NCBI RefSeq assembly: GCF_004010195.1
Contig: NC_057719.1
Span: forward strand, 7,193,060 to 7,238,085
Reading direction: 5' to 3'
DNA from: Chiloscyllium plagiosum
Taxonomy: Eukaryota
DNA length: 45,026 nt
Shown: positions 619 to 35,328 of the stretch, piece by piece
How positions within the stretch are numbered: position 1 is the stretch's first letter
Layout of the letters: each line of letters begins with the position of its first letter
Made by a program: the position numbers and the translations under genes
The notes under the pieces: generated by a model
Databases searched by the model: none
What the model was told of the DNA's origin: nothing
Seen by the model: the letters and a program-made list of their open reading frames with translations, nothing else

Positions 619-898
619 AAAACAAGGACTGCAGATGCTGGAAACCAGAGTCTAGATTAGAGTGGTGCTGGAAAGGCACAGCAGGTCAGGCAGCATCCGA
701 GGAGCAGGAAAATCAACGTTTCGGGCAAAAGCCCTTCATCAGGAATAGAGGCAGGGTATCTGCATAGTGGAGAGGTTCTCCACTATGTAGATACCCTGCT
801 TCTATTCCTGATGAAGGGCTTTTGCCCGAAACGTTGATTTTCCTGCTCCTCAGATGCTGCCTGACCTGCTGTGCTTTTCCAGCACCACTCTAATCTAG
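619..898. mobile_element. Non-autonomous Penelope-derived palindromic element (family 1 pLTRs, inverted)
   Basis: 652-773 is the reverse complement of 777-898 with 4 mismatches. The left arm has an extra ~33-nt tail (619-651). Flanks TAGTGGTGATAGGG (604-617) and TAGTGGTGATTGGG (896-909) look like a 14-bp TSD. Confidence 0.9.
808..835 (+). ncRNA. Minimal hammerhead-ribozyme-like motif in PLE pLTR (mirror copy on - strand at 715-742)
   Basis: CTGATGA-A-GGGC TTTT GCCC-GAAA-CGTT: core box, 4-bp stem II with tetraloop, GAAA box, palindromic ACGT and a GTT triplet. Confidence 0.7.
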
Positions 899-1102
899 TG
901 GTGATTGGGGGCTACTATTAGTCTCTGTATTGCTGACGAGGGAGAATGTTTGCTAAAATTCATCTTCTGAATGGTGACTCAATGAGTATGCAAAAGATAT
1001 ACTAGTGATTATGTAACTCCTATTTCCAGGGTGTCCTGAAACATTTTATGCTCAACTTTACAAGATGTTGCTTCAAAGAAGTTGCAAAATTAAGGACAAT
1101 GT

Positions 1103-1630
1103 AATATTGTGCACGGTTTTGGTCATCATGTTTTAGGAAAGACATAGTTAAACTGGAAAGAGTGCAGAGAAGATTTACGAGATGTTGGCAGGGCAAGTAG
1201 GCCTGAATTATAGGGAAGAGTTGGCAGGGATAGGACTTTATTCCTTGGAACTTAGGAGAATGAGGGGTGAGCTTATCGAGGTTTATAAAATCATGAGGGA
1301 CACAGATAGAATGAATGCATATAGTCTTTTTCTCAGGGATGGGAAATTGAAAGCTAGAGGGTGTAGGTTTAAGGTGAGGGGGAAAGATTTAAGAAGGACC
1401 TGAGAGGCAACTACTTCACGCAGAAGGTGATACATATATGGAATGGGCTGCCTGAGAAAGTGGTTGAGGCAAGTGCAATAGTAACATGTATAAAACATTT
1501 GGGTAGGTATATGGATGGGAAGGGTTTAGCAGGATATGCAGGCAGTTGGAAGTAGCTGAGTGGGCACTATGGTCCGCATGGACCAGTTTGGGCCGAAGGA
1601 CCTGTTTCCATGTTGTATTACTCTGACTAT
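1103..1630 (+). mobile_element. CR1 LINE, 5'-truncated (RT C-terminus plus 3' UTR)
   Basis: KDIVKLERVQRRFT...GLYSLELRRMRGELIEVYKIMR motif, followed by the 3' UTR GGGCCGAAGGACCTGTTTCCATG shared with other copies. Confidence 0.9.
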
Positions 1631-2282
1631 CAGGTGGCAACCTGTTGCAGCCTCTATCCTGCTAGACAATTAACAATTCAAGTCAGGCCCCTTAATGTTC
1701 CTGATTAAGGGTGTATGCAGGAAATAATCCATAGGACTGAGATGCTATTACCCTCCAGGTGTGATCATCATTTAAATATTGGCCTTCTAAAACTGGTAAT
1801 TTATTTTCACACGCCAGTCCCACCATCAAATGAAGAATTTTTACCCAAGGCCTATATTAAAGATACCAAAGGATATGGAGGTGATGCAGGAAAATAACAT
1901 TGAGTTTAATAATCTGTCTCAATCTTGTTCAATGGAGGAGTGGCCCAAGGAACCTAACAGCCGACTTCTGTTCCTGTTTCCTACATTGCTGTTTGTTCAT
2001 TTGCTCATGAAAAGAAATTAGAAGCTCTTTTTGTTAACTTCACAAACTAATTTACTCAATTATTTTATGACGTTTGTAACTGTTTCTGTTCAGAGTTGGT
2101 ATACTTCACCAAATCTGTTCAATGACTTTGTAATTAGAAATGCCTGTAGTCAGTGTGTTATTAAAATCTTATTGGTGAATAGGTTTTCATTTTTGTTTTG
2201 AGGAAAAGGAATTTTTATCAAAGACATTTAAAAGCTTCTTTACCTCAGTGTACAAAATTGTTACGTGTGCAAACCTTCACAG

Positions 2283-2450
2283 TTTTCCCTGCCTGGGGGT
2301 TCAAAGATCAGGGATAAAATGTCAAAGTAAAGGGCACTTTGGACTGTGATGAGGAATTTCTTTACTTGAAGAATAGTGAATCATTAGAATTCTCTACCTG
2401 AGAGAGCTATGGATCTCAGTCAGAGTACATTCAATACAAATATTCCCTCC
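2283..2450 (+). mobile_element. Decayed CR1 LINE fragment
   Basis: GGACTGTGATGAGGAATTTCTTTACT...AATTCTCTACC resembles the RT C-terminal (R.NFFT...WNSLP) region of other copies. Confidence 0.5.
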
Positions 2451-3423
2451 ACTGTTTTTAGCATTCTGGCGATCATTTATTGTTTGGGATTGCTTCCATA
2501 ACCAAAACCTTTGATTTTCATGTGTACATCTGTGTTTGACTTCAACCTCCAGGACTGGTGTCAATGAAATACCGTTTATATTACTATCAGAGGTGATACC
2601 CACCTGATGAGCAACAATGATGGGGAGAAAAGTACTCTGCTATAAGTCGCTTCTGTGTTATGAGACTAGAATTCACCTTTGTTCCCTGGACTGTTGTTGA
2701 AGTGAGATTTGAATTCATGACCACTTGACTTAGAAATGGAAATGCTAATACTGTGGTAAGGTTAGTCTCCTTGTGACATTCTGTCTTGATCAGGAAGACA
2801 GAAGATACTTAAGAGTGCTTCAGTTTAGAGAATCAACATAAACATTTTTTAAAATCTTCATCTTTTAACACAAAACCCCAAGTCCCATTTCAATTATTTC
2901 CTTTCTCATTGTCTTCATACAACATATTATTTTGCCAATCTATTCTTAACTGCTTCAAAAAGGGCACACTCAAATTTTGTCTTTTAATGTAATGTTGGAA
3001 CTTCGGTAAAACGTTAACAAACTTTTTTTATTTGAATCAATTGATTGTACCAAGTGTTTATACAGCTAACAGAGCAGACAATCAGGTGATAAGGCTGGTG
3101 TGAGTTATTTTACTATCCGATCAATTAAAATCAGAGCTGGGAAAGAAGATTGTTTCTAATGAAAAATGTCTGCAAGTTGTGCCACTTTCTGATCTTGAGT
3201 AAATCTTGCTAGAAGATTCCTAGTTAAATGATCAAACTGCTTTTCTAATAGACTTGGTGCTGCTTTGCTGTTGATTGTAGCCAGTCTGTACTATTATGGG
3301 CAACATTTTTCCATGCTTCTAAATCCCACCTCTCTTCCACATTGGACTCCTCCAATTAATTCATGGATTGAAGCATAATCTTGATTGTTTGGGTGATAAG
3401 GTTTGACAGTATTTCTTGTCGGT

Positions 3424-3639
3424 AACAAAGCAGACATTGCTGGAAAAACTCAACCGGTCTGGCAGCATCTGTGGAGAGAAATCACAGTTAACGCTTTGGG
3501 TCGAGGGACCCTTCCTTAGAACACGACCTAAAACATTAACTCTGATTTCTAGCCACAGATGCTGCCAGACCTGCTGAGCTTTACCGTGAATTTCTGTTTT
3601 TATTTCTGATTTACAGCATCCGTGGTTCTTTTGGTTTTT
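3424..3639. mobile_element. Penelope-derived inverted-repeat element (family 2)
   Basis: GGTCTGGCAGCATCTGTGG..AGAAATCACAGTTAA is mirrored by TTAACTCTGATTTCT..CCACAGATGCTGCCAGACC. The minus strand has a degenerate core CTAAGGA-AGGGTC CCTC GACCC-AAAG. The right arm carries the tail extension. Confidence 0.8.
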
Positions 3640-4920
3640 CTTGTTCGTAAATCTGCAGTGGGGCAAAAAATGAACTTTTCTTTTTACTGTAATAATGTAA
3701 GAAACGGAATAATTTGGTGTGAAGCAGAATCTGATATCAATGCTTATATTTTGTTGCCCCATTAACACCCAAGGAAGATCTCTTGACAAAGAAATTGGCT
3801 TTGGCCATCAAACTTGGACAAGAGCTTGAAATAAGGTTAGACTGTTGAAACAAAGTTTAAACCAATTTAATGAACTGATTTTTTTTTACTTAAATGGTTT
3901 ATTGATACTGGGTATAAGATCAGTTAATTATGGAACCACGAATTGCAGTAACTATGATTGGTGAACTGGTAGCAGATTGAATGCAGATGCTGTGTTGGTT
4001 TTTGCTTGAGTGGCTATAATGACAGCCTGAAGGCAACATCTAAAAACCTCCTGTGGTTTGTTTTCCTCCACCATTTTGTGGAAATCAATTATATCTTAAT
4101 AGTTTGTAGACTATCAGCAGCATTTTTTTACTAAAGGAGTGCACAAGTTTTTTTTCTGAAAAAACTCTGTACACTTCGATCCATTACTGCATCAACTTGG
4201 GGTTGATTTACAACAGCTGGATTCATGTTCTTCAGTGAGAACAATAGAGCAACACAATTGCTTTAATCAGTAAATGTGCATTGCAAATGAATTTGTTTAA
4301 ATAGCTTAGTTCCAACTTGTGTACTTTGTATGAAGCTGAAGCTGCCAATTGCATAAAGAAGGTGGGGAGATCTTGATAATTACTTAAAACACCCTGTTAC
4401 TGTGGCAATAGTTTAATATCTCAACCACCTGTAGGGCAAGTCTGTTAAATAGCAGGCAAGCTGGATGGCACATTTCTGTATTCAATGTTTCTGTGACTTG
4501 AAACAACTTGGTTGTAGACTAATGAATGGAACTAACTGAGAGATTCGGGTTTGTATTTTCAGCAGGCACATATCCTTATGCTTAGTGTTCCAGTTATTGC
4601 ATTGAACTGCTGTTATGTTGGCTACATGGATAAGTTTATGGTGGAAATGATTATCTGCAGTGGACATGGCCAGCATCAAAGATCAATGCAGAGATCAATG
4701 GAGCATTTTTGCCCCTTTATTAACATGTCTTCAAGGCACTAATCAATTACTACTGTCAAAAGTTCTTCCTTGCATGTTAATGAATCTCAAAGTTAAAAGA
4801 CCCCTCTAAATAAATATTAACATCAGATTCTGTGTGTCTCCAAGTTTTTAAGTATCTCGACATTTTGTACAAATCTTAAAAGCACAAAATATTTTCCTTT
4901 CACTCATTGTTTCATTGCAG

Positions 4921-5700
4921 TTAGAGTCTTAGATGTAGAGGTCAAAAACAGGCACCACCTATTCTAATCATGTTTCCCACCATAAACTTGCATGTCTTGA
5001 CTTTGCAAGTGTACAACTAATACTTCCTCAATGTTGAGAGTTCCATATTCCCATCACACTCTGGGTTAAAAAACTTTTCCTCACATCCCCTCTAAACCTC
5101 CTGCCTTTTACCTTATATCTATATCCCTGGTCATTAGTCCCTGCTCTAAGGGGAAAGGATTTTCCTATCTACTCTGCCTATGAAGCTCATAATTTTATAC
5201 AACTTAATCTTGGCCACTTCAGTCTCCTCTGCCTCACGGAAATCAACCTCCGTCTAACCCAGCTCTCTTTGTAACTAAAACTCTCAGCCCGGGCTAATTA
5301 CCTCTTTATCTAGTGCTATTACATCCCTCATATAATATGGATTCCAGAGCTTCACCCAACATTTTAACTGTAGTGTAACCAACTTGTTCATACAATTCCA
5401 GCCTAACCTCCCTGCTCATCAACACTATACCTCAGCTCACAAAAAGCAGCTGTTTCATATTCCTTAACCATTTTACCTTCCTGTCCAACCTGAAGAGATC
5501 AGTGGACATGGACACCATGGGCCCTCTGTTCCATGGTGTTTCTCAGGATCCTATTGTTGATCATGTGTTACCGTGCCTTGTTTGTCTTGCTCTCATGCAT
5601 CGCTTCATGTTGCATTCAATTTGCCACTGACCAACCTGTCTGCATCCTTTTGTAATCTAAGGCTATCCACCTCTGTTTACCACCCCAACAATTTTCATAT
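4921..5700 (-). mobile_element. Old decayed CR1 LINE
   Basis: CACACTCTGGGTTAAAAAACTTTTCCTCACATC and CTCATAATTTTATAC are reverse complements of CR1 RT C-terminal motifs; many indels. Confidence 0.7.
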
Positions 5701-5859
5701 ATTAGTTGTGAATTGATTCCAGTTTCCCTAGGATAGATTCTTACCAACTGCACTGAAACTGGCCACTCTCCTTTTTGTGTTTTTACTCTAGATTGCTCCT
5801 TGTTCTTTATCCCATGGCAAACCCAATCGTTTGATAGTACAGATTCCCAGCCAGTGATA

Positions 5860-6040
5860 TTTCCACTAACCACCATTTCCTTGTGGATAAACTGTGCTCC
5901 CTTGTTATTGACAAAGTTAGCATAGTAACAATTACCGACACAAGCTTTCAACTCAGATTTATTTATTGAACCTTTTCAATTCCACAAGCTGCCATAGTGA
6001 GATGTGAACCCATGCCATCTGAAGTATTAACCCAGGTCTC
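5860..6040 (-). mobile_element. Decayed tRNA-derived SINE (family B)
   Basis: TTCAATTCCACAAGCTGCCATAGTGAGATGTGAACCCATG...ATTAACCCAGGTCTC is the reverse complement of the SINE head at 20904-20990. Confidence 0.5.
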
Positions 6041-6612
6041 CATATTATCCCTACAAACCCAATTTCCCGCAGAAATCCTGCACTGACATTTGATCCACTT
6101 TATGCAACTCGTTCTCCAGAACCAAATCCATCAATGCATCCTGTTAAGCAAGGGTTTGAAAAGTTATCTGGGATAGGCAGGAATTGAGATTTGAGGTTAC
6201 AGTCAGAATCAGCCAAACTTTTCTTGAATGGTGAAGTAAACCCAAGAGGATGAATGATTCATGTGTTTGGATGTTGGGCTGTAACATACCTAATGAAGAA
6301 AATTTTCCCTCTTCACTTTGTATGCTTGCTATCCTAGTCTGTTATGACATTTTAAGACTCCAGTATAACAATGTATTCATTCTTGCAGCGCTCTAATTTC
6401 CTTGCAAAATTGCTCCTAAATGTTTCCCACTCCATGCCTTATGGAGCATGTCCATTAGTCTAATGGTATCTTTCATGGTTTTTTTGACTGAAATGCATGA
6501 AGTTTTTAGGCTTAATTCCTCCAGGACAACATCTGTTAAACATTGCAATACTCTTCTTGATCAACACAGCTATTCCTCCCTTATATTTCCTGAAAGCAAT
6601 GTATCTAGGGGT

Positions 6613-6789
6613 AAAACAAAAACAGAAATTGCTGGAAAAGCCTAGCAGGTCTGGCAATATCTGTGAAGAAAAATCAGAGTTAATGCTTAAGGTCCAGTGA
6701 CCCTTCCTCAGAACTGATGGTAGCTAGAAAAATGTTGGTTTCTGAGGAAGGGTCACCGAACCTGAAACATTAACTCTGATTTTTCTTCA
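6613..6789. mobile_element. Penelope-derived inverted-repeat element (family 2)
   Basis: Arms 6664-6713 and 6740-6789 are inverted around a 26-nt spacer. The + arm contains CTGAGGA (6742-6748)-AGGGTC ACCG AACCT-GAAA (6764-6767). Confidence 0.8.
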
Positions 6790-6794
6790 TTTGT

Positions 6795-7434
6795 TGTTTC
6801 TACCATGTACAGCTGATACAATAAAAATGAGACAGTGTTCCTTCCTCCAGGACCAAGGTGCTATATGAACAAACACACACTACATGAGAGTACAGGAGAA
6901 AATGAGGACTGCAGATGCTGGAGATCCGAGTCGAGAGTGTGGTGCTGGAAAAGCACAGCAGGTCAGGCAGCATCTGAGGAGCAGGAGAATCGATGTTATG
7001 GGCAAAAGCCCTTTATCAGGGCTTTTCCAGCATAAAGTATACAGAGAAGTGCAAAACATGCAATATAGCGCAGTAATTCCTGACAAGACAAGACAATAGG
7101 CACAGTGGTGGACAAATTACAATGTAACAATGAATGATCATTAATAAAACATTGTTTTAGCAGCAATTCAAAAAGTCATCCAAAAATTGCAAATGGAATA
7201 GGGTGTTATCATACAGTGTTAAGGAGCCTGATGGCTTGGGAGAAGAAACTATTGCAGTCTGATTGTGAGAGATCAAGTGCTTCGGTAACTTCTGCCAGAT
7301 GGCAGGAGGGAGAAGAATTTGAATGAAGGATGTGTAGGGTCATCCGCAATGCTGTTGGCCTTGTGGAGGCAGCATGTGGTGTAACTGTCTGTAATGGAGG
7401 GAAGAGAGACCCCAATGATCATCTTAGCTGCTGT
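6795..7434 (-). mobile_element. Rex1/Babar-clade LINE 3' part
   Basis: AAKMIIGVSLPSITDSYTTCCLHKANSIADDPTHPSFKFFSLLPSGRSYRS...CNSFFSQAIRLLN is a typical Rex1 ORF C-terminus. Confidence 0.85.
6896..7032 (-). mobile_element. Penelope family 1 pLTR with tail and a 12-nt inverted stub, inside the Rex1 3' UTR
   Basis: Homologous to 619-742. Ends CCCTTTATCAGG, then GCTTTTCCAGCA, which is the inverse of the internal TGCTGGAAAAGC. Confidence 0.85.
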
Positions 7435-8076
7435 CAGAGCACCACAGCTATCCCAAAGCCCTGAGGGCAGTTTCACAACCCAGCAATACCATAGCCACAC
7501 AAAGAACAGGTCAGACAGAGAGGCCACCAGCAAGAGCACTATTCCCAGAACAGGACAATGGAAGCACCTCACCGCTTCAGGGAAGACATTAGTACCTACC
7601 TGGCAGCACCCGCCCCATAACCCTCCAAACCTTCCTATTCATCTCCCCATCCAGATGTCTTTTAAATGTTACAATTGTACTAGTCTCCACCACTTCCTCT
7701 GGCAGCTCATTCCATACAGGCACCACCCTCTGCGTGGAAAAGTTGCCCGTTAGGTCTCTTTTTTTATATCTTGCCCCTCTCACCTTAAACATATGCCCCC
7801 TAGTTCTGAAATCCTCCACCCCAGGGAAGAGACTTTGTCTATTTATCTTATCCATGCCCCTCATGATTTAAAAAACCTCCTATAATGTTACCCCTCAGCC
7901 TCCGACGCTCCAGGGAAAACAGTCCCAGACTATTCAACTCCTCCCTACAGCGCAAATCCTCAAACCCTGGCAACATCCTTGTAACTCTCTTCTGAACCTT
8001 TTCAAGTTTCACAACATCTTTCCGATAGAAAGGAGACCAGAATTGCATGCAATATTCCAAAAATGTACAGTAATTT
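7435..8076. repeat. Composite local duplication: inverted copy of 8657-8816 fused to a direct copy of 9043-9518
   Basis: Direct sequence comparison. It shares private variants with the 9043-9518 CR1 copy that are absent from the 27.4-27.9 kb copy, and it interrupts the Rex1 ORF. Confidence 0.85.
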
Positions 8077-8250
8077 TTGTAGGTTTTATAGTCCAAGACC
8101 GTGCAATTCCTGAACTAGGCAGTGCTGCAGCTACTCTTGGTACTCTCAACGAACATTCTGTAGAATGTGATAAGAATGGGGGATGAAAGATGGGCTTTCC
8201 TCAACCGATGCAGAAAGTAGAGATGTTGCTGGGCTTTCTTGACTATGGAA
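8063..8250 (-). mobile_element. Rex1/Babar LINE, upstream part of the element at 6795-7434
   Basis: Minus strand reads SIVKKAQQHLYFLHRLRKAHLSSPILITFYRMFVES...*FRNCTVLDYKT. Confidence 0.85.
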
Positions 8251-8262
8251 CTAAAGTACTCA

Positions 8263-9508
8263 GGTCATAGAGATGTACAGCACAGAAACAGACTGTCGGA
8301 GAAATTAGCCCAATAAAGCAGAGACCACATAAACCAGATCAGGTGAAATTGACAAGCTGTTTATTACAAGCTATATGGCTGGAAGAGAAATTGACTAGGC
8401 TGACACAGCACTGATAGTCTGTGCAGGTAGATCAGAATTGCTCTTCCTCGAGCTGAGGAAGAAGCCAGTTTTTATTATAATCCTGAACAATGAGGCTAAT
8501 TAGAAATGGGGAAAATACAATGTATCTGGAAATGGAGTAATCTAGTTACAATGATGCTAATCAGAAAACAGTTATCAGAGGATGTCCTAATTCTCTACAC
8601 AAAGCAACATCCTGACAGTATTGATGGGTTCAGAGCTTCCATTCCTCTTCGCAGGGAGGTACTAATGTCTTCCCTGAAGTGGTGAGGTGTTTCCATTGTC
8701 CTGTTCTGGGAATAGTGCTCTTGCTGGTGCCTCTGTCTGACCTGTTCTTTGTGTAGCTTTGATATTGCTGGGCTGTGAAACTGGCCTCGGGGCTTTAGGA
8801 TAGCTGTGGTGCTCTGTCATTGTTAGTGGGAGCTTGAAGAGTTTTCCCTTGTCTGCGAGTGCTGTCTAGTTTTGCTCGTCAACATGCTTGGTCCCTGCTG
8901 AGGCATTCTGGATGTTTTTGCTATAGTTTGGCCAATTTTGCTTTTGTGGGCCTATTATAGGCTGGCAGGGTGGCACATCGTTTCCCACACAGACCCTTAG
9001 GTCCAACTCATCCATGCCAACCAGATATCCCAACCTCATCCCACCTGCCAGCACCCGCCCCATAGCCCTCCAAACCTTCCTATTCATCTACCCATCCACA
9101 TGCCTTTTAAATGTTACAATTGTACCAGCCTCCACCACCTCCTCTGGCAGCTCATTCCATACAGGCACCACCCTCTGCATGGAAAAGTTGCCCGTTAAGT
9201 CTCTTTTTTTAATATCTTGCCCCCTCACCCTAAACATATGCCCCCTAGTTCTGAAATCCTCCACCCCCAGGGAAGAGACTTTGTCTATTTATCTTATCCA
9301 TGCACCTCATTTTAAGAATCTGTATAAGGTTACTCCTCAACCTCCGACACTCCAGGGAAAACAGCCCCAGCCTATTCAACCTCTCCCTACAGCGCAAATC
9401 CTCCAACCCTGGCAACGTCCTTGTAACTCTTTTCTGAACCCTTTCAAGTTTCACAACATCTTACCGATAGGAAGGATACCAGAATTGCATGCAATATTCC
9501 AAAAGTGG
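8263..9508 (-). mobile_element. CR1 LINE 3' fragment, split by a solo LTR
   Basis: 8263-8293 (GTCATAGAGATGTACAGCACAGAAACAGAC) joins 8995 onward (CCTTAGGTCCAACTC), matching the uninterrupted copy at 27358. RT motif KLERVQKRVTRTLPGL. Confidence 0.9.
8294..8989 (-). mobile_element. Solo LTR (696 bp) of an LTR retroelement or ERV
   Basis: TG...CA termini with imperfect inverted ends TGTCGGAGAAA / TTTCCCACA; exact 5-bp TSD CAGAC (8289-8293, 8990-8994); on the minus strand a TATA-like TATAATAAAA near 8475 and AATAAA near 8360. Confidence 0.8.
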
Positions 9509-9518
9509 ACAGTAATTT

Positions 9519-10515
9519 CTAAATGTGTGAGATTGGAAAGTGTCCTTGTTCCTAGCAAACTGAAAACTAGCATGCAGATGCAGCAAGCAACCCAGAAAGG
9601 AGATGGTATAATCGCCTTATCACAGGAGGATTTGAGTACGGGAGCAAAGAAATCCTACTTCAACTTCGAGAATACTGGAGATTGCACTTTGAGTATTGTG
9701 TAAAGTACTGGTCCCCTTGCTGAAGGAAGGGTGTACTTGCCGTAGAACAAATTCAGTGGAAGCTCACCAGAGTTTTTAGATTAGTTTCCCTACAGTGTGG
9801 AAACAGGCCGTTTGGCCCAACTAGTCCACACCGACCCTCCGAAGAGTGACCCACCCAGATCCGTTTCCCCTCTGACTAATGCACCTAACACTATGGGCAA
9901 TTAGCATGGCCAATTCACCTGGCCTGCACATCTTTGGATTGTGGGAGGAAACCAGAGCACCCAGAGGAAACCGATGCAGACATGGGGAGAATGTGCAAAC
10001 TCCACACAGACAGTCACCCAAGGCTGGAGTCGAACCCGGGACCCTGGTGCTGTGAGGCAGCAGTGCTAACCACTGAGCCACTGTGCTGCCCTTCATAGAA
10101 TGGTGGAACTGTCCTATGAGAAGAGATTTAGGGGAGTGAACCTGTATTTTCTAGAATTAAAAGAATGAGAGTTGATTTCATATAAACTTGAAAAATTCTT
10201 AAAAGATAACCAAAAGTAGATGCAGAAAGAATGGTTCCCTGGATGTGAGTATTAGAACCAGGAGCACTGACTCCAAATAAAAGGCAAGTCATTAAGGACT
10301 GTGATGAGGAAAAACTACTTCAGTCAGAGATGTGAAGTTTTGCAATTTGGCACTCCCTGGTACTGTGGTAATTCAGATCATTGATAGGTTTCTAGTTTGC
10401 AATCACATCAAGGGGAATGTGGAGAACAGGGAATGTGGCATTGAGATAGTTGATCAGCTATGATATATAATGGAGGAGCATGCTCATGGAACTGAACAGC
10501 CTGTTCCTCCCATGT
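9519..10515 (+). mobile_element. Old CR1 LINE, split by the HE1-type SINE
   Basis: GAGTATTGTGTAAAGTACTGGTCCCC and AGGACTGTGATGAGGAAAAACTACTTCAGTCAGAG motifs plus a 3' UTR ending CAGCCTGTTCCT. Confidence 0.75.
9773..10091 (-). mobile_element. HE1-type V-SINE (tRNA head, V domain, CR1/HER1-like tail)
   Basis: Minus strand: GGGCAGCACAGTGGCTCAGTGGTTAGCAC (A box), GGGTTCGACTCC (B box), V domain GTGTGGAGTTTGCACATTCTCCCC...GGTTTCCTCCCAC, and a tail GGCCTGTTTCCACACTGTAG shared with CR1 3' ends. Confidence 0.9.
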
Positions 10516-14570: not shown

Positions 14571-14635
14571 TAAGTCCTGCTCACAAAGTGATCAAACATT
14601 CAACATAAAATATAAGTAACTGTCCCAGATTGCTG

Positions 14636-14732
14636 TATTCCTGATGAAGGGCTTTTGCCCGAAATGTCGATTTTCCTACTCCTCAGATGCTGCCTGAGCT
14701 GCTGTGCTTTTCCAGTACCACTCTAATCCAGA
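14636..14732 (+). mobile_element. Solo Penelope family 1 pLTR with hammerhead-like core
   Basis: CTGATGA (14641-14647)-AGGGCTTTTGCCC-GAAA (14661-14664)-TGTC, then ...CCACTCTAATC as in 808-895. Confidence 0.85.
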
Positions 14733-14789: not shown

Positions 14790-17095
14790 GGCTCATTAAA
14801 AACCAGGAGTTGAAGGAGATCATTTGGCCCTTTGAGCCTGCCCCATCATTGTGTTGATCATTCAACTCCATACCCTATTTCTCCTTTCTCTCTCTACTCT
14901 TTGATCCCCCTGGTTATAAGAATTATATCTAACTCCTTCCTGAAAACATTCAATGTCTTGGCCTCACTACTTTGTGGTAGAGAGTTCTGCAGGCTCACCA
15001 CACTGAGCCATGAAATTTCTCCTCATCTTGGTCCTAAATGGCCTCCCGTATATCCTTAAACTGACCCTGGTTCTGAACCCATTTCATCAGAAAAATTTAC
15101 TGTTAGAATTTGACAGGTTTCTATGAGAACTCCTCATTCTTTGGTAGATATGGTCCAAACAGATCAGTCTGTCTTCATACATCAACCTTACCATCCCAGG
15201 AATCAGTCTGGTAAACATTTGTTGCACCCCTTCCACAGGCAAAACATCCTTCCTCAGATAAGAAGACCAAAACTGCACACAGTATTCCAGGTGGTCTCAC
15301 CGGAGCACTGTAGAATTACTGTAAGATTTCCTTGCTTCTGTACTCAAATCTTATCACTGTGAAGGCCAACGTGCCAGTTATGGCTTGCTGCACCTGCATG
15401 CTTATTGTCTGCACCAGTTGTACAAGGGCATCCACTTCTCTTTGTACCTCCCTTTTTCGTAAACTATCGCCATTCAGATAATCTGCTGCCTTATTTCTGC
15501 CACAAAATTACATAATCTCACAGTTATGCACATTAAATTTTATTTACCATGCATTTGTCCACTCTCACATCATGTTCAAATCACACTGAATCGTATCTTT
15601 GCAAGTCACCTTCCTTCTCAGCCTTGCGTTGTTTGCAAACATCGAGGTAGAGTGAGTGGGGGAGGGGATGAAGGTGATAGGTCAGGGAGGAGGGTGGAGT
15701 GGATAGGTGGAAAAGAAGATAGGCAGGTAGAACAAGTCATGGGGACAGTGCTGAGCTGAAAGTTTGGAACTAGGGTGACTAGGAGGCGTCCAGTCTCCCC
15801 AATGTAGAGGAGACCGCATCGGGAGCAACGGATACAATAAATGATATTAGTGGATGTGCAGGTAAAACTTTGATGGATGTGGAAGGCTCCTTTAGGGCCT
15901 TGGATGGAGGTGAGGGAGGAGGTGTGGGCGCAGTTTTGCAATTCCTGCGGTGGCAGGGGAAAGTGCCAGGATGGGAGGGTGGGTTGTAGCGGGGGCGTGG
16001 ACCTGACCAGATAGTCATGGAGGGAACGGTCTTTGCGGAAGGCGGAAAGGGATGGGGAGGGAAATATATCCCTGGTGGTGGGGTCTTTTTGGAGGTGGCG
16101 GAAATGTCGGCAGATGATTTGGTTTATGCGAAGGTTGGTGGGGTGGAAGGTGAGCACCAGGGGCGTTCTGTCCTTGTTACGGTTGAAGGGGTGGGGTCTG
16201 AGGGCGGAGGTGCGGGATGTGGACGAGATGCTTTAGAGGGCATCTTTAACTGCGTGGAAAGGGAAATTGCAGTCTCTAAAGAAGGAGGCCATCTGGTGTG
16301 TTCTGTGGTGGAACTGGTCCTCCTGGGAGCAGATACGGCGGAGGATTGGGAATACGGGATGGCATTTTTGCAAGAGGTAGGGTGGGAAGAGGTGTCATCC
16401 AGGTAGCTGTGGGAGTCAGTGGGTTTGTAAAAAATGTCAGTGGCTAGTCGGTCATCATTAATGGAGATGGAGAGGTCCAAGAAGGGGAGGGAGGTGTCAG
16501 AGATGGTCCAGGTAAATTTAAGGTCAGGCTGGAATGTATTGGTGAAGTTGATCAACCTCCACGCGGGAGCACGAAGTGGCGCCAATGCAGTCATCAATGT
16601 AGCAGAGGAAGAGGTGGGGAGTGGTGCCGGTGTAATTACGGAAGATCTACTGTTCTACATAGCCAACAAAGAGACAGGCATAGCTGGGGCCCATATGTGT
16701 GTCCATGGCTACCCCTTTGGTCTGGAGGAAGTGGGAGGATTCGAAGGAGAAATTGTTAAGGGTGAGGACCAGTTCGGCCAAACGAATGAGAGTGTCGTTG
16801 GAAGGGTACTGTTGGGGACGTCGGGAGAGGAAAAAACTGAGGGCTTGGAGGCCCTGGTCATGGCAGATGGAGGTGTAGAGGGATTGGATATCCATAACGG
16901 GCATCAGTGTTTAAGAAGCATGATTTCCCTTTCATAAAATTGTGCTGGCTTTTTTCAGGCCTGTCTCTATTTTACACACGTTCTCCTACTAAATCTTTTA
17001 TAATGCACTCTAGCATTTTCCCTGAGACTGATGTGAAGCCAACTGGTCCATAATTCCCTGTTTTCTCCCTACCTCCTTTTGTTTAAATAGTAGAC
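14790..17095 (-). mobile_element. Old CR1 LINE (14790-15643 and 16896-17095) interrupted by a Penelope-like element
   Basis: QFWSSYLRKDVLPVEGVQQMFTRLIPGM ORF; KFAND-like GTTGTTTGCAAAC at the junction; an upstream NY.PV..TSV-like motif at ~17025-17055. Confidence 0.75.
15644..16895 (-). mobile_element. Penelope-like element, RT plus GIY-YIG pseudogene (frameshifted, internally deleted)
   Basis: MDIQSLYTSI, QTKGVAMDTHMGPSYACLFVG, YIDD (16590-16601), LPFLDLSI...IFYKPTDSHSYL and IIYCIRCSRCGLLYIGETGR motifs in successive frames. Confidence 0.95.
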
Positions 17096-20901: not shown

Positions 20902-21206
20902 TATTGCGAGACGATTAAACAAGAGAGCAAGGTAATGTTCTGGAAACCTGGATTTGAATCTTGCCACTGCGGGTGATGGAATTTGAATTGTAAAAAACAA
21001 TCTGGAATTAAGAGCCAAATGATGACCATAATGATACCTTTGTCGATTGTCAGATAAACCCATCTAGTTCACTAATGCATTTTGGGGAAGGAGGCTGCCC
21101 CCTTACCTGTTTGGGCCTACATGTGACTCCAGGCCATCAGACTCTTAACTGTCTTCTCCAGTGATACCCTCATCCTGTGAATGAAGAAAAATAAACTGCT
21201 AGTCAT

Positions 21207-22245: not shown

Positions 22246-22340
22246 CCAAAACATCTGGTTTAGCCAAAAAATGTTTACTTACAAAAAGAAAGTAGAATGA
22301 AGCAGATGCTAAAAATCTAACAAAGACAGAAAATGTTAGA

Positions 22341-22910
22341 ACATTGAGTATAGGAGTTGGAAGGTCATGCTGTGGCTGTACAGGACATTGGTTAGGCCAC
22401 TTCTGGCATATTGTGTGCAATTGTGGTTTCCCTCCGATAGGAATGATGTTGCAACACTTGAAAAGGTTCAGAAAAGCTTTACAAGGATGTTGCCAGGGTT
22501 GGAGGGTTTGACCTGTAGGGAGAGACTGTATAAGCTATGGCTGTTTTCCCTGGAGTGTCAGAAGCTGAGGGGTGACCTTATGGGTTTATAAAATCATGAG
22601 GGGCATAGATAGGGCAGACAGACAAGGTCTTTTCCCTGGGATGGGGGTGTCCAGAACTAGAGGGCATAGGTGTAGGGTGGGGGGGGGGTGGAGGTGTGAG
22701 TGTATGGAATGAGCTGTCAGAGGAAGTAGTGGAGGTTAGTACAATTACAAAGTGTAAAAGGCATCTGGATGGGTATGTGAATAGGAAGGTTTTGAGGGAT
22801 ATGGACCAGGTGCTGGCAAATGGGACTAGATTAATTTAGGATATCTGATCGGCATGGACAAGTTGGGTCTAATGGTCTGTTTCTGTGCTGTACATCTCTA
22901 TGACTCTGTA
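22341..22910 (+). mobile_element. CR1 LINE 3' fragment inserted in a decayed family-2 PLE end (22295-22340, 22911-22970)
   Basis: LYRTLVRPLLAYCVQLWFP...LEKVQKSFTRMLPGLEGL; flanks GCAGATGCTAAAAATCT and GAGAGAGAAACTGAGTTAATG are PLE-like. Confidence 0.9.
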
Positions 22911-23494: not shown

Positions 23495-23585
23495 CTGAAA
23501 ATGTGTTGCTGGAAAAGCGCAGCAGGTCAGGCAGCATCCAGGGAACAGGAGAATCGACGTTTCGGGCATAAGCCCTTCTTCAGGA
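23495..23585 (-). mobile_element. Solo Penelope family 1 pLTR (91 bp) with an intact hammerhead-like core
   Basis: Exact 11-bp TSD AATGGACACTG (23484-23494, 23586-23596). Minus strand CTGAAGA-AGGGC TTAT GCCC-GAAACGTC at 23583-23556. Confidence 0.92.
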
Positions 23586-24665: not shown

Positions 24666-25972
24666 TGTTATGGACCAGAGCAAGGTCGTAACTTTTATCT
24701 TATTTAAAGGCAAGTTTGAGGTGCTGTGTTCCAGGTGTGATTGGATTGGTTACACTGCTCGTCTTTAAGCAAAACACACTTTACTTTTGCCCTATAGCTA
24801 AAATGAAAACAAAAGAAAGGAATTGAAATAACTTAACTTTATTGGAAAACGTAATTGAAAAATAGATTATTTAACTACTAAACAGCAATTGTTCCAATAT
24901 AGTAACATCCCATAAACACACCCTTGGCAAAGGTGAAGCCATGGAGTCATAGTCATACAGCACGGAAATAGACCCTTCGCTCCAACTCATTTGCATTAAC
25001 CAGACACCCCAACTGAACAGGATACTGATTAAGGATGATCAGCCATGATCATATTGAATGGTGGTGCAGGCTCGAAGGGCAGAATGGCCTACTCCTGCAT
25101 CTGTTGTCTATAACATTTGGCCCAATGCATCCATGGCAACCAGTTTTCCTAAATTAATCCCTTCCCATTTGCCAGTAAATGGCCCATATCCCTCTAATCC
25201 CTTCCCATTCATATACTCATTCAGATGCTCTGTAAATGTTGTAATTGTATCAGCCTCCACCACCCCCTCTGGCAATTCAATCCATACACACGCCACCCAC
25301 TGCATGAAAAAGTTACCCCTCACATCCTTTTTGAATCTTTCTCCTCTTACCTTAACCTTATGCCCCTCTAGGCTTGGACTCCTCCACACTGGGGAAGAAG
25401 AAAAAACCTTATTCTTTCACCCTATCCATGCTCCTCATGATTTTATAAACCTCTATAAGATCACCCCTCATTCTCCAAAGTGCCAGGAGAAAATGCCCCA
25501 GCCTGTCCAGCCTCTCCTTATAACTCAAAAGTTCCAGCAACATCCTTGTAAATCATTTCTGCACTCCCTCAAGTTTAACAATATCTTTCCGATAGCATGA
25601 TGACCAGAATTGTACACAGTATTCAAAAAGTGGCCTCACCAATATCTTTTACGACTGCAAGGTGATGTCACGAGTCGTTGAAATAGATTGTCTCCCATGT
25701 GATTCTGGGTGAGAGAGAGAGTGTAGTAGGGAGAGTGAGAGTTTCCACTGCCAACTTCCAAATCCAAAAACTACTGAAAGCTAAACTAAAACCCCTGACT
25801 CCACCCATTCATGTAGCTTCCATTGTTCCAACGTTTTCTTTTAAAAACCCCAAGGCACCTCAAGCTGTTTACATTATTGGCTTGGAACAGACCACTCCTT
25901 ACCTCTATCTCAATCTCTCTTTAAAATAAGCCAGGACAAAGTGCACCTGTTTAAATCCAGAATAGCATTACA
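24666..25972 (-). mobile_element. Solo LTR (Gypsy-like), split by CR1 insertions
   Basis: Termini TGTTATG...CATTACA and a 4-bp TSD TAAT (24662-24665, 25973-25976). About 580 bp remains after removing CR1. The strand is inferred from an AGTAAA poly(A)-like signal near 24780. Confidence 0.65.
24944..25669 (-). mobile_element. CR1 LINE 3' fragments inside the LTR, with a + strand CR1 3' tail at 25015-25111
   Basis: GHKVKVRGERFKKDVRGNFFMQWVACVWIELPEGVVEA ORF. 25015-25111 matches the reverse complement of 44097-44195. Confidence 0.9.
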
Positions 25973-26810: not shown

Positions 26811-27233
26811 TCCAACATAAAGGCTGCATAATTGCAAGTTATTGTAGCCGCATGTGAAAGCCATTTGTGGTTCATTTGCTTGAGTTTACTGCTTCATGCT
26901 TGCTGACTGGTATCTGTGACACTCAACAGGTGTATTATTAGATGTTGGAATTTAATCTCGTTTTTGTTCAGTAAATAGTAATTCAAATTAAAGTGAAGAA
27001 AGCAGATATGCATGAAGGTCTAAAAACTTTAAAATATCATTATACCTTCAAAATTACTCCTCTTTGCAACCATCTACAGAGTGACTTTAACCTCTGGCTT
27101 GTCTGCTGCCAGTGGAAGTGTTTGGAAGTACAAGCTTTCAGAGTGCTGTTCCTTTGTCAGCGAATTACCTGACAAAGGAAAAGCGCTCCGAAAGCTTGTA
27201 CTTCCAAATTAACCTGTTAGACTATAAGCTGGT

Positions 27234-27327
27234 TTTCCTGATGAACGGCTTTTGTCCGAAACATCGATTTTCCTGCTCCTCAGATGCTGCCCGACCTGTT
27301 GTGCTTTTCCAGCTCCACTCTAATCTT
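27234..27327 (+). mobile_element. Solo Penelope family 1 pLTR nested in the family 3 element
   Basis: Exact 14-bp TSD GACTATAAGCTGGT (27220-27233, 27328-27341); CTGATGA at 27238-27244 and GAAA at 27258-27261. Confidence 0.9.
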
Positions 27328-27348
27328 GACTATAAGCTGGTGTTATAG

Positions 27349-28158
27349 TGTCAGAGAGTCATAGAGCTGTACAGCACGGAAACTGACCCTTCGGTCCAAC
27401 TCATCCATGCCGACCACATATCCCGACTTAATCTAGTCCCACTTGCCAGTACCTGGCCCATATCCCTCCAAACCCTTCCTATTCATATACATCCATATGT
27501 CTTTTAAATGTTGCAATTGTACTAGCGTCCACCACTTCCTCTGGCAGCTCATTCCATACACGTACCACCCTCTGAGTGAAAAGGTTGCCCCTTAGGTCTC
27601 TCTTATATCTTTTCCCTCTCACCCTAAACCTATGCCCTCTAGTTCTGGACTACCCCACCCCAGGGAAAAGACTTTATCTATATATCCTATCCATGCCCCT
27701 CATGATTTTATAAGCCTCTCGAAGGTCACCTCTCAGCCTTCGACACATCAGGGAAAACAATTCAATCTCTCCCTATAGCTCAAATCCTCCAACCCTTGTA
27801 AATCTTTTCTGAACCCTTTCAAGTTTCACAACATCTTTCCGATAGGAAGGAGACCAGAATTGCATGCAATATTTATGGGCCAATGGGCTGAGAAGTAGCA
27901 GATGGAGTTTAATTTAGATAAATGTCAGGTGCTGCATTTTGGGAAAGCAAATCTTAGCAGGACTTGTACACTTAATGGTAAGGTCCTCGGGAGTTTTGCT
28001 GAACAAAGAGACCTTGGAATGCAGGTTCATAGCTCCTTGAAAGTGGAGTCGCAGGAAGATAGGATAGTGAAGAAGGCGTTTGATATGCTTTCCTTTATTG
28101 GTCAGAGTATTGAGTACAGGATTTGGGAGGTCATGTTGCGGCTGTACAGGTCATTAGT
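27349..28158 (-). mobile_element. CR1 LINE with an inverted 5' segment (27875-28158 on +)
   Basis: The minus part runs from the 3' end up to the YCMQFW codons. The plus part encodes MEFNLDKCQVLHFG...VMLRLYRSL, the adjacent upstream RT sequence. Confidence 0.9.
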
Positions 28159-29443: not shown

Positions 29444-29698
29444 CTCAAAATGTGTGACGCTGGAAAAGCATAGTTTACCTTTTCTTCAGTATCTGTTTTC
29501 AGGATGGCATGGAATGTCTTTTCATCTCGAGAGAAAACTGAATAGGGAACTATAGTTTCAGCTGCCACAGCTGATTCCATCAGAAGAGCTCATGTTCGCA
29601 ACCTCAATTGCCCTGCTGCTCGGATGCTGCCTGACCAGCTGTGCTTTTCCAGTGCCATACTTTTTGACTGATATCCAGCATCTGCAGTCCTCGTTTCT
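29444..29698 (+). mobile_element. Penelope family 1 inverted-pLTR insertion carrying captured local DNA
   Basis: Exact 14-bp TSD CCTGTAGCTGAAGA (29430-29443, 29699-29712). Short inverted arm 29444-29470, filler 29471-29581 matching 30631-30740, then a pLTR with tail. Confidence 0.9.
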
Positions 29699-32439: not shown

Positions 32440-32550
32440 TGGAGACCTATAGCACAGAAACATGCTTTGGCCCAGCTCGTCCATTCTGACCAGGTTTCCA
32501 AAACTGCACCAGTTCCATTTGGTCCATATCCCTTTCACACTTTCCTATCC
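32440..32550 (-). mobile_element. CR1 3' tail fragment
   Basis: ATAGCACAGAAACATGCTTTGGCCCAGCTCGTCCAT...CCATATCCCT matches other CR1 3' ends. Confidence 0.75.
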
Positions 32551-32744
32551 ATGTCTTTGATATATGGTAAGCTGGCTAGAGTCTCTAGGTGTGTTGTGGT
32601 TTCCTGTTCAGAGAGCAAGCTTTCAACCTGATCCACATTTGAGCTGCAAATCTTCTCAAATCCCAAACACTTATGGGTGCAATACCACTCAAACTAGTCT
32701 AAAGATGGGAAACCAATGTCATCTGATTGAGCGCCACCTGCCAA

Positions 32745-33345
32745 TAACAGGAAGATGTGACATGCCCAAAGACACTATCCACGCTGCGAACATCAAAGAC
32801 ATCTCAGAGATGATGACCAATTTAAAGGACCCCATACCAACAATCAGCAGAAAGAATGCCATATACAATATACCCTGCAAGGACTGCAAAAAACACTATA
32901 TTGGACAAATGGGCAGAAAGCTAGCCACCAGGATACACATGAGCACCGAGTAGCCACCAAAAGACATGACCAGCTATCACTGATATCCATACAACAGACG
33001 AAAAGGGACACCAGTTCGACTGGGACAATACTTCCATCCTGAGACACGCTAAACAATGACATGCATGGGAATTCCTAGAGGTCTGGCATTCAAACCAGAA
33101 CTCCATTAATAAACATATTGATTTGGACTCCATTTACCAACCTCTCCAAAACAGAACGGGAAATGGTATCACCTACCACAACAAACCAAGACAAATAAAT
33201 AGCAAGCGGGACAGAATACCAACGCTTCACTGGAGGCTCACTGATGATGTTATCTAGTATGGTGAAGAAATGTCTTGAGAACAAATCTATCAGCTCAGAA
33301 AGCAAATTTACAACCTGATCAACAAATCTTTTCCAAAATCTCAAT
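32745..33345 (+). mobile_element. Penelope-like element (family 4): GIY-YIG remnant plus pLTR
   Basis: KDPIPTISRKNAIYNIPCKDCKKHYIGQMGRKLATRIH, followed by GHQFDWDNTSIL and EFLEVWHS-like motifs. A short inverted related fragment (LPYIKD) lies at 32551-32606. Confidence 0.9.
33237..33279 (+). ncRNA. Hammerhead-ribozyme-like motif of PLE family 4
   Basis: CTCA-CTGATGA-TGTTATC TAGTAT GGTGAA-GAAA-TGTC-TTGAG: both core boxes, an imperfect longer stem II, a GTC triplet and a CTCA/TGAG stem I with one extra T. Confidence 0.65.
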
Positions 33346-33640
33346 CTCAGCTCTGTCTATATTGGGAAATATTACACTGCATGAAATTTTCCATTTAATA
33401 CATTTTGGTGCTAATTTCTAATGAGTACTGTTAATGTGCTAAAATGTCACTGGTCAAATTTATACCCTGGCAGAACTGGATTGTTCATATTGTAACAGGA
33501 CACTTGTGCTTTGACTGCAAGTTTGAAATTCAGAGTCTAGGTTTAAAATATGTTGGCTATCTTTCCTAAAGCCAAACCTTGGAGAAGTCTAGGTACAGTG
33601 ACACTACTGATTGTCCCCAGCCTCTGACCACCTTATTCCA

Positions 33641-34383
33641 TCAGAAGGCACATGACACCAGGTTATAGTCTAACAGGTTTATTTAATATCTCAAGCTTTT
33701 GGAGCATTGCTCCTGACTTCACCTGATGAAGGAGCAGCACTCTGAAGTGTAGTGGACAACGAAGAGGGTTACCTCAGATTACAACAGGATCTGGACCAGA
33801 TGGGCAGAAAAGATTTACAAGGATGTTGCCAGGGTTGAAGGATTTGAGCTATAGGGAGAGGCTGAACAGGCTAGAGCTGTTTTCCCTGGAGCGTCGGAGG
33901 CTGAGGGGTGATCTTAGAGATGTTTACAAAATTATGAGGGGCATGGATCGGGTAAATAGACAAGGTCTTTTCCCTGGGGTGGGGGAGTCCGGAACTGGAG
34001 GGCATAGGTTTAGGGTGAGAGGGGAAGTATATAAAAGAGACCTAAGGGGCAACTTTCTCACGCAGAGGGTGGTACGTGTATGGAATAAGCTGCCAGAGGA
34101 ATTGGTGTAGGCTGGTACAATTGCAACATTTAAGAGGCATTTGGATGGGTATATGAATAGGAAGGATTTGGAGGGATATGGGCCGGGTGCTGGTAGGTGG
34201 GACTAGATTGGGTTGGGATATCTGGTCGGCATGGACAGGGTTGGACCGAAGGGTCTGTTTCCATGCTGTACATCTCTCTGACTCTGACTCTTGTGATTTC
34301 AAATATACCTGTTGAACTATAACCTGGTGTCATGTGACTTCTGACCTTGTCCACCCCTGTCCAACACCAGCACCTCCACATCA
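33641..34383. mobile_element. Penelope-derived inverted-repeat element (family 3) split by CR1
   Basis: CACATGACACCAGGTTATAGT..AACAGG is mirrored at ~34308-34337. The core CTGATGA (33723-33729)-AGGAGCAGCACTCT-GAA is cut at 33746. Confidence 0.85.
33747..34290 (+). mobile_element. CR1 LINE fragment with an internal deletion
   Basis: LRLQQDLDQM jumps directly to QKRFTRMLPGLKDLSYRERLNRL; intact 3' UTR and (CTCTGA)n tail. Confidence 0.92.
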
Positions 34384-34556
34384 CATTTTATTCTGTATTG
34401 GGCATTACTAGGCTCCAGAACACAACTAAAGAACACACAAACTCATTGTTCACTGCAACTCAACAGGGAGGTTTTATTCCATAGATGTGCACCCTAGAAG
34501 AGCTCAAAACAAGCTGAGAAATTTGCTTCATCAGTTTGACTCATCTCTTAAAGAGG

Positions 34557-35328
34557 GGAAAGTGCGGCCTACAGATGCTGGAGATCAGAGCTGAAAATGT
34601 GTTGCTGGAAAGCCGCAGCAGGTCAGGCAGCATCCAAGGAGCAGGAGAATCGACGTTTCGGGCATGAGCCCTTCTTCAGGAGGTGTGGAGGTGCGGAGGT
34701 GCAGGTGAATTTGTTCCATATTCGCCACAAATTCACCTGCACCTCCACACACATCATTTACTGCATCCGCTGCACCCGATGTGGTCTCCTCTATATTGGG
34801 GAGACAGGTCGCCTACTTGCGGAACGTTTCAGAGAACACCTCAGGGACACCCGGACCAACCAACCCAACTACCCCGTGGCTCAACACTTCAACTCCCCCT
34901 CCCACTCCACCAAGGACATGCAGGTCCTTGGACGACTCCATCGCCAGACCATAGCAACACGACGGCTGGAGGAAGAGCGCCTCATCTTCCGCCTAGGAAC
35001 TCTCCAACCACAAGGGATGAACTCTGATTTCTCCAGTTCCCCCTTGTCTCAGTCAAATCCCTCAAACTCAGCACCGTATTCCTAACCTGCAATCTTCTTC
35101 CTGACCTCTCCGCCCCACCCCCACTCCGGCCTATCACCCTCACCTTGACCTCCTTCCGCCTATCACATTTCCAACGCCCCTCCCCAAGTCCCTCCTCCCT
35201 ACCTTTTATCTTAGCCTGCTGGACACACTTTCCTCATTCCTGAAGAAGGGCTCATGCCCGATACGTCGATTCTCCTGCTCCTCAGATGCTGCCTGACCTG
35301 CTGCGCCTTTCCAGCAACACATTTTCAG
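34557..35328 (+). mobile_element. Penelope family 1 element: inverted pLTR + GIY-YIG domain + pLTR
   Basis: Exact 17-bp TSD CTCATCTCTTAAAGAGG (34540-34556, 35329-35345). Open IIYCIRCTRCGLLYIGETGRLLAERFREH...QPQGMN. Hammerhead-like cores at 34652-34679 (-) and 35240-35267 (+, GAAA mutated to GATA). Confidence 0.95.

What the first reader, a model, noticed from the sequence alone, without database searches (positions are those of the whole stretch)
808..35267. Minimal hammerhead-like core conserved across four PLE families with co-varying stem II
Seen: family 1 CTGA(T/A)GA-A-GGGC(TTTT/TTAT/TCAT)GCCC-GAAACGT(C/T) at 808, 14641, 23583(-), 27238, 34679(-) and 35240, some with point mutations; family 2 CTGAGGA-A-GGGTC-N4-GACCC-like at 6742 and ~3518(-); family 3 CTGATGA-A-GGAGC..GCTCC-GAAAGCT composite from 27169 and 33723; family 4 CTGATGA-longer stem-GAAATGTC at 33241. 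In the best copies the core varies mainly at the free position 7, stem II sequence changes while pairing is kept, and helix III is reduced to a 4-nt palindrome (ACGT or AGCT). Known: CUGANGA and GAAA form the hammerhead catalytic core, and minimal PLE hammerheads have been described as cleaving as dimers via palindromic loops. Inference: these families keep an extremely reduced motif with almost no stem I in family 1. It may need trans or dimer partners, or may now serve as an RT recognition signal rather than a ribozyme.
Basis: partly seen in the sequence, partly recalled or inferred. Interest (0 to 1): 0.7.

Follow-up and report, generated by a model that had tools for sequence, protein, structure and literature searches.

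The report
Penelope hammerheads at capped transcript start
These are mostly decayed copies of the miniature hammerhead RNA motif already known from Penelope-like jumping genes, present over 100,000 times in this genome, and in three families the copies' left ends show that the element is likely copied from an uncut, capped RNA that begins right at the ribozyme.

Summary
All 11 motifs are at the stated places (one is 1 nt off), but only 3 of 11 have an intact core; a fourth at 742(-) was missed. Exact patterns give 93,870 / 380 / 18,531 / 18,176 genomic matches for families 1-4 (reversed controls 0-3). They are minimal type I hammerheads in the pLTRs of Neptune-type (F1, F3, likely F2) and Poseidon-type (F4) Penelope-like elements, a kind described in 2014. 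Covariation holds in helices I, II and III; one stem II pair change is 27-fold over chance, though it is one subfamily event.

Added here: 76 of 103 F1 and 25 of 34 F3 copies begin within -13..+7 of the core (F4 1 of 17), about 30 nt behind a TATA-like box. An excess G precedes the inferred +1 (F3 88 of 100; F1 2,638 of 4,571). The template is therefore likely capped, sense and uncut RNA starting at helix I. No unique peak lies at the cut site, and cleavage itself is untested. The scan reported this same reading before on other windows and genomes.

The parts
604..909 (.). Family 1 head-to-head fold-back insertion with 14-bp target-site duplication (604-617 / 896-909, 1 mismatch)
711..746 (-).
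804..839 (+). Family 1 minimal hammerhead, intact core (C3 at 808)
3418..3600 (.). Family 2 fold-back; hammerhead C3 at 3519(-), decayed (G5 to A)
6619..6789 (.). Family 2 fold-back; decayed hammerheads at 6711(-) and 6742(+)
6936..7020 (-). Family 1 short pLTR copy, decayed hammerhead at 7019
14636..14731 (+). Family 1 short pLTR copy, hammerhead at 14641 with broken helix III palindrome
15618..16654 (-). Frameshifted Neptune-type PLE RT-thumb, linker and GIY-YIG fragment (motifs read by eye; no Pfam hit)
23495..23585 (-). Family 1 solo short insertion, intact core (C3 at 23583), 11-bp target-site duplication
27121..27233 (.). Family 3 fold-back; decayed hammerheads at 27160(-) and 27169(+)
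27234..27327 (+). Family 1 solo short insertion (C3 at 27238, decayed) inside the family 3 pLTR, 14-bp target-site duplication
29574..29657 (+). Family 1 copy, likely of the subfamily with the A-U stem II pair, strongly decayed
32561..32953 (+). Poseidon-type GIY-YIG endonuclease fragment upstream of the family 4 hammerhead (motif read by eye; no Pfam hit)
33238..33277 (+). Family 4 minimal hammerhead (C3 at 33241), decayed
33657..33755 (.). Family 3 fold-back remnant; hammerhead at 33723(+), decayed
34540..35345 (+). Family 1 insertion with 17-bp target-site duplication: inverted pLTR plus tail (intact hammerhead at 34679 on -), GIY-YIG fragment, 3' region, pLTR (hammerhead at 35240, GATA)
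35204..35240 (+). Inferred core promoter: TTTTAT box at -32 and initiator-like A at 35236, the inferred capped +1 and first base of helix I
   Evidence: inference
42172..42266 (-). Family 2 pLTR copy, decayed hammerhead

Best explanation
These motifs are minimal type I hammerhead sequences in the terminal repeats of several Penelope-like retrotransposon families, and in families 1-3 they likely form the first 35-40 bases of a capped transcript that is likely reverse-transcribed uncut. Shown: the motif anatomy, its position 3' of GIY-YIG coding sequence, covariation, copy numbers, the pile-up of copy 5' ends at the motif's front edge, the excess G there, and two preferred 3' ends. Inferred: a TATA/initiator promoter in the pLTR starts RNA 4 nt (F1, F2) or 8 nt (F3) before C3. 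The element's RT primes at one of two internal 'tail' sites about 90 or 125 nt downstream, runs through the intact cut site and off the cap, adding a C opposite it. This yields 90-135-bp stubs, alone with a target-site duplication or joined head-to-head as fold-backs. Inferred from the literature: the ribozyme cuts weakly, as a dimer through the ACGU/AGCU palindrome and probably with help from the element's protein. A cut 32 nt from the cap would decap the RNA or allow circularisation; that step is untested.
For: Copy counts with controls. GIY-YIG upstream in the same sense. Helix I TTC/GAT or GAA, GTT/AAC, CAC/GTG, GCA/TGC and helix III ACGT or AGCT by family. Stem II pair 10.2-11.2: G-C 93,870, A-U 546, single changes 1,535 and 1,235, so about 20 doubles expected. 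5' ends within -13..+7: F1 76 of 103 (76 of 99 without the 4 reference copies), F3 25 of 34, against 2 of 27 and 0 of 9 in the next 21 nt upstream. 16 of 34 solo edge-starting copies have a target-site duplication (shuffled mean 1.9, maximum 6) and their flanks are unrelated. G before the inferred +1: F1 2,638 of 4,571 against about 20% expected; F3 88 of the first 100 listed against 30-32%; F2 42 of 100 against 23-30% (searches counted by eye). L307 and L325 read duplication, one G, then ATTCC. TATA-like boxes at -27 to -33 in 13 of 13 copies checked. Untemplated G as a cap mark in L1 and SVA (PMC4859970, passages). Internal RT initiation, tail and uncut template in an anole PLE (PMC11167929).
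Against: No RNA 5' end was seen directly: the single-cell RNA run X20 had no start or end pile-up, X21 laid no reads, and both strands were covered alike. F4 shows no such barrier (1 of 17) although it has a TATA-like box about 55 nt upstream. In F1 the box is TTTATC-like, not a consensus TATA. In 4 of 30 G-junction loci the G belongs to the duplication, and most of the rest are fold-back junctions where G cannot be assigned with certainty. 42 of 76 F1 edge copies have an inverted partner, so they are not all independent events. Isolated natural copies do not fold into the active shape by minimum free energy, as monomer or dimer. The 546 A-U copies look like one subfamily, so they count as about one compensatory event.
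Confidence: 0.75

Rival explanations
1. Known minimal hammerheads, but the common 5' boundary is made at the DNA level, by the element's endonuclease cutting its own pLTR or by an RT stall at a structure, not by an RNA 5' end.
For: The anole PLE endonuclease cuts an ATT motif at its own ORF-pLTR junction (PMC11167929), and the F1 boundary reads ATT. Many copies end a few bases inside the core.
Against: The boundary moves with the promoter-like motifs (-4 in F1 and F2, -8 in F3), F2 and F3 lack ATT there, and a DNA cut or stall does not predict an added G.
Confidence: 0.1
2. The motif is kept as a protein-binding or structural signal and no longer cuts.
For: Inserted copies come from uncut RNA. 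Catalytic mutants did not change insertion in vitro, and no RNA-seq ends were found at the cut site, in the anole element (PMC11167929). Naiad elements spread without canonical hammerheads (PMC8557442, passages).
Against: All catalytic positions and non-G at position 17 are kept across Neptune-type and Poseidon-type families with unrelated flanks. The anole motif does cut when its protein is present. RT start sites lie well downstream of the motif.
Confidence: 0.1
3. The short copies are a separate SINE-like non-autonomous element with its own master genes.
For: Discrete 90-135-bp insertions with target-site duplications dominate.
Against: Short copies occur in each F1 subfamily and in F2 and F3, match the pLTR of long EN-bearing copies, lack the promoter-like box that would let them be transcribed again, and end at the PLE tail sites.
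Confidence: 0.05

Closest known systems
Minimal hammerheads (min-HHR) in pLTRs of metazoan Penelope-like elements, Cervera and De la Pena 2014 (PMC4209133; parts 1-2 of 4 read, 2 of 3 supplement files searched)
   Same: Type I core, unpaired base before helix II, G10.1-C11.1, palindromic 15.2-16.2 without helix III, many families per genome, mostly single truncated copies, opposite-strand pairs; reported in fish Xena, Poseidon and Neptune elements.
   Different: Copy number is far higher here (over 130,000 exact matches against about 4,000-9,000 in coelacanth and Xenopus); helices I (2-4 bp) and II (4-5 bp in F1-F3) are shorter than their schistosome examples; no shark row in the two searchable supplement files; they did not relate the motif to the transcription start.
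Poseidon element of the green anole, Frangieh et al. 2024 (PMC11167929; parts 1-2 of 4 read)
   Same: Two adjacent internal RT starts that define the tail, uncut RNA as main template, both target strands extended, protein-assisted hammerhead. F4 has the same two 3' ends in an AC-rich stretch.
   Different: In vitro and Poseidon clade. The cap-end run-off seen here is in Neptune-type families and absent from F4.
Drosophila virilis Penelope promoter, Schostak et al. 2008 (PMC2377424; part 1 of 4 and passages)
   Same: Promoter and transcription start inside the pLTR.
   Different: TATA-less internal promoter with an intron 46 bp after the start, whose end abuts helix I (PMC4209133). Here a TATA-like box lies upstream and helix I itself is the inferred start; no shared upstream exon was found.
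Adineta vaga Penelope insertions, Arkhipova et al. 2013 (PMC3846280; passages)
   Same: Inverted pLTRs, head-to-head palindromes, tail, TATA and initiator-like motifs in the pLTR.
   Different: They favoured self-priming on an antisense template; the sense-strand G at the inferred start points to sense, capped templates for these families.
Non-LTR retrozymes (bioRxiv 10.64898/2026.07.22.740005; part 1 of 5 and passages)
   Same: PLE-related type I hammerheads, also reported in one cartilaginous fish genome.
   Different: Retrozymes are head-to-tail tandem arrays; the copies here are solo or head-to-head, and the window has no such array.

Membership tests
PLE minimal hammerhead (min-HHR) | Core CUGANGA ... 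GAAA ... UH with H not G | tested here: met
   (G at position 17 in 4 of 237 copies, never a family majority)
PLE minimal hammerhead (min-HHR) | Helix II with G10.1-C11.1 and one unpaired base before it | tested here: met
   compensatory pair
PLE minimal hammerhead (min-HHR) | No helix III, palindromic 15.1-16.1 | tested here: met
   ACGT in F1, F2, F4 and AGCT in F3
PLE minimal hammerhead (min-HHR) | Short helix I closing a type I topology | tested here: met
   2-4 bp, differing by family
PLE minimal hammerhead (min-HHR) | Located in the pLTR of a GIY-YIG-bearing element, sense to the ORF | tested here: met
PLE minimal hammerhead (min-HHR) | Self-cleavage as a dimer | not testable with these tools
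   needs in vitro assay; genomic cut-site footprint inconclusive; RNA reads uninformative
Rfam hammerhead families | Match to a covariance model | tested here: not met
   no hammerhead hit at E up to 10; expected for motifs that lack helix III (inference)
Neptune-type PLE (F1, F3) | CX2-5CxxC linker between RT and C-terminal GIY-YIG | tested here: met
   F3 linker CHGKRCKTC; F1 linker seen decayed or frameshifted; criterion from PMC8557442. Not seen for F2; does not separate Neptune from Nematis
Neptune-type PLE (F1, F3) | RT phylogeny within the clade | not tested
   no intact RT found: long frames were assembly gaps
Penelope/Poseidon-type PLE (F4) | GIY-YIG without the cysteine linker, two tail ends | tested here: met
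   no tree built
Non-LTR retrozyme | Head-to-tail tandem array of hammerhead units | tested here: not met
   tested for the window and sampled loci only

The most novel reading that the evidence does not exclude
In Neptune-type Penelope-like elements the hammerhead is the capped first 35-40 nt of the mRNA, and tens of thousands of genomic stubs are strong-stop-like cDNAs that ran off that cap. This gives in vivo evidence that PLEs copy sense, uncut RNA, explains head-to-head palindromes as two joined run-off products, and recasts the ribozyme as a dimer-triggered decapping or circularisation switch rather than a step needed to release the template.
Probability: 0.65. Interest if true: 0.62.

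Novelty: new member of a known kind. Interest (0 to 1): 0.45.

Why it matters
The motif itself is known. What PLE hammerheads do, which strand PLEs copy and how their inverted repeats arise are open questions (PMC8557442 and PMC3846280, passages). The junction pattern fixes a predicted start site to the base in three families, so cap mapping and a run-off assay can test it directly, and the genome supplies natural helix I variants of 2 to 4 bp for cleavage assays.

Tried and rejected
Rfam at E up to 10 on the window and on one copy: no hammerhead. Search for a full-length element: the long frames were runs of N, and the tandem F2 pair in L140 is a segmental duplication, so no RT tree was built. 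Cut-site footprint, a lead from finding e1-9123830: apparent starts at +27, +28, +29, +30 were 311, 559, 116, 663 (patterns pass 25-35% of random flanks; many +27 hits look like 1-nt deletions and many +30 hits like fold-back overlaps). Most of 30 loci at +28 are fold-back junctions with possible GA microhomology, 3 still hold the core, and only 2 are solo copies with an adjacent duplication; the random sample had 5 of 151 F1 copies at +26..+30, level with neighbours. Inconclusive; at most a minor class. RNA: no RNA holder listed; read lay showed no start or end pile-up. A splice junction or a hidden subfamily as cause of the boundary: rejected, flanks are unrelated. Pair counting on alignment A1 (79% paired, 0 of 500 shuffles as high) is not relied on, since the F3 rows and the helix III pair were one column out of register; R-scape was not available and no covariance model was built. 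Minimum-energy folding did not give the active fold. F2 breakpoints were not mapped on the random sample, and some F2-like copies are among the F1 rows with late starts. Dropped before counting: F1 11 of 162 rows (10 beside N gaps, 1 off the probe), F4 1 of 19. Lunse et al. (PMC5785218) is not held; I saw only its title and a review's summary (PMC6765202, passages). Searches that found no paper on a cap-marked start at a PLE hammerhead, or on shark PLE hammerheads: (listings only for most); the library lacks most subscription journals and one supplement file of PMC4209133 was unreadable.
Full report
Observation. Three have an intact core (808+, 23583-, 34679-); 742(-) is a fourth. The rest are decayed copies. 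A descriptor for the minimal type I hammerhead found 48 hits in 990 kb of evenly spaced genome stretches and none in reversed or shuffled controls. Exact patterns match 93,870 (F1), 380 (F2), 18,531 (F3) and 18,176 (F4, looser pattern) times in the 3.56-Gb genome, with reversed controls of 0, 0, 0 and 3. Rfam gives no hammerhead hit.

What carries them. Each motif lies in the pLTR, downstream of and in the same sense as GIY-YIG coding sequence (Pfam PF01541 for 34552-35085). F3 has the CX4CxxC linker and F1 a decayed form of it, which marks Neptune or Nematis (PMC8557442, passages). F2 shares its downstream pLTR and endonuclease with F1. F4 lacks the linker and is Poseidon-type. No RT tree was possible. 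The insertion at 34540-35345 shows the known PLE layout: inverted pLTR with tail, ORF fragment, pLTR, and a 17-bp duplication. Earlier scan notes call the genome shark-like; I did not determine the organism.

Covariation. Across families helix I reads TTC/GAT or TTC/GAA, GTT/AAC, CAC/GTG and GCA/TGC; helix II GGGC/GCCC, GAGC/GCTC, GGGTC/GACCC, GGAGC/GCTCC and a longer stem in F4; helix III ACGT or AGCT. For pair 10.2-11.2 in F1 the double change occurs 546 times where the single changes predict about 20; these copies share loop and position 7, so this is probably one fixed event. Position 17 is C, U or A by family and G in 4 of 237 copies. Keeping all catalytic positions across unrelated pLTRs argues for selection on the ribozyme fold in the active lineages (inference). 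Individual genomic copies decay neutrally.

What is known. Cervera and De la Pena (PMC4209133, parts 1-2 of 4) defined exactly this motif, found it in fish Neptune and Poseidon elements, and saw no monomer and low dimer activity. Frangieh et al. (PMC11167929, parts 1-2 of 4) showed protein-assisted cleavage, internal RT initiation at two tail sites, and uncut RNA as the main template.

What the junctions add. Copies were found by a probe downstream of the cut site and aligned to long reference copies. Of those reaching +7 (C3 = 0), 76 of 103 F1 and 25 of 34 F3 copies begin within -13..+7, against 2 of 27 and 0 of 9 in the next 21 nt upstream; F4 gives 1 of 17 (Fisher p about 1e-7 and 4e-6 against F4, not corrected for paired arms). 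The 3' ends cluster near +84-94 and +121-131, the tail sites. Of 34 solo edge-starting copies 16 have a target-site duplication (shuffled mean 1.9), and their flanks are unrelated; 23583(-) and 27238(+) in the window are examples. About half of the edge-starting copies have an inverted partner directly upstream (42 of 76, 18 of 25).

Why there. TATA or TATA-like boxes stand 27-33 nt before an initiator-like A at -4 (F1, F2) or -8 (F3) in 13 of 13 long copies checked. At non-native junctions the base before that A is G in 2,638 of 4,571 F1 matches (about 20% expected), in 88 of the first 100 F3 matches (30-32% expected) and in 42 of the first 100 F2 matches (23-30% expected; searches counted by eye). 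L307 and L325 show duplication, one G, then the element. In L1 and SVA such a G is taken as a copy of the cap (PMC4859970, passages). I infer capped, sense, uncut templates that start at or just before helix I. In the F1 subfamily with a 4-bp helix I the inferred first four bases are that helix's 5' strand.

Against, and open. No RNA start was observed. F4 does not behave this way. Some Gs belong to the target duplication or to ambiguous fold-back junctions. Starts at the predicted cut (+28, 559 matches) exceed +29 (116) but not +30 (663) and are mostly fold-back junctions with possible microhomology, so in vivo cleavage is neither shown nor excluded. Natural copies do not reach the active fold by energy minimisation, in line with reported weak activity.

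Mechanism. Transcription starts in an upstream pLTR just before the hammerhead (inferred). The element's protein nicks the target and primes at a tail site (known for the anole element, inferred here). On the 5' copy of the pLTR the RT has only 90-135 nt to go and runs off the cap, giving the stubs; two such products, or one plus a longer cDNA from the 3' pLTR, join head-to-head and give the fold-backs (inferred). The ribozyme likely cuts only when two RNAs pair through the 4-nt palindrome, with protein help, removing the capped 32 nt or opening the way to circular RNA (untested).

Earlier scan results. The look-up came after the breakpoint and extra-G tests. It listed several unreviewed notes with the same reading on this and other genomes, which is not independent support, and one note claiming a cut-site footprint, which I tested here with an inconclusive result. 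My literature searches found no paper stating the cap-marked start, within the limits of the library.

Verdict. Real feature, known kind; interest 0.45, carried by the junction evidence on how PLEs are copied.

Noticed in passing
window 1200-1530, 7595-8090, 9030-9520, 21200-22910, 24960-25660, 27350-27870, 33730-34240, 41770-42970, 44470-45026: Many fragments of a LINE family (RVT_1 hit at 21203-21664; repeat families); CR1-like by my recall, not tested.
   Followed up: no
window 39273-39729: Two head-to-tail copies of a 228-bp LINE-like unit, 98% alike.
   Followed up: no
window 27220-27341: A family 1 stub inserted into a family 3 pLTR with a 14-bp duplication; similar nesting of one family in another is seen in L037, L087 and L104.
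   Followed up: partly
   Followed up: partly
L091-L120 (family 4): TATAAA-like box about 55 nt before C3, yet no pile-up of copy starts behind it; Poseidon-type copies behave unlike the Neptune-type ones.
   Followed up: partly
L241-L250: Long family 1 copies are nearly all outward-facing inverted pairs with an assembly gap between them, so full-length elements are probably under-assembled.
   Followed up: partly
families 1-3, across the predicted cut site: A second palindrome overlaps the cut site (TCGA, GTTAAC, CTAG) and could compete with the helix III pairing in dimers; it appears in some predicted dimer folds.
   Followed up: no
window 9821-10150: Repeat on the minus strand that resembles a tRNA-derived SINE head also seen in L068 and L140 (recalled resemblance; ARAGORN found no tRNA).
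   Followed up: no
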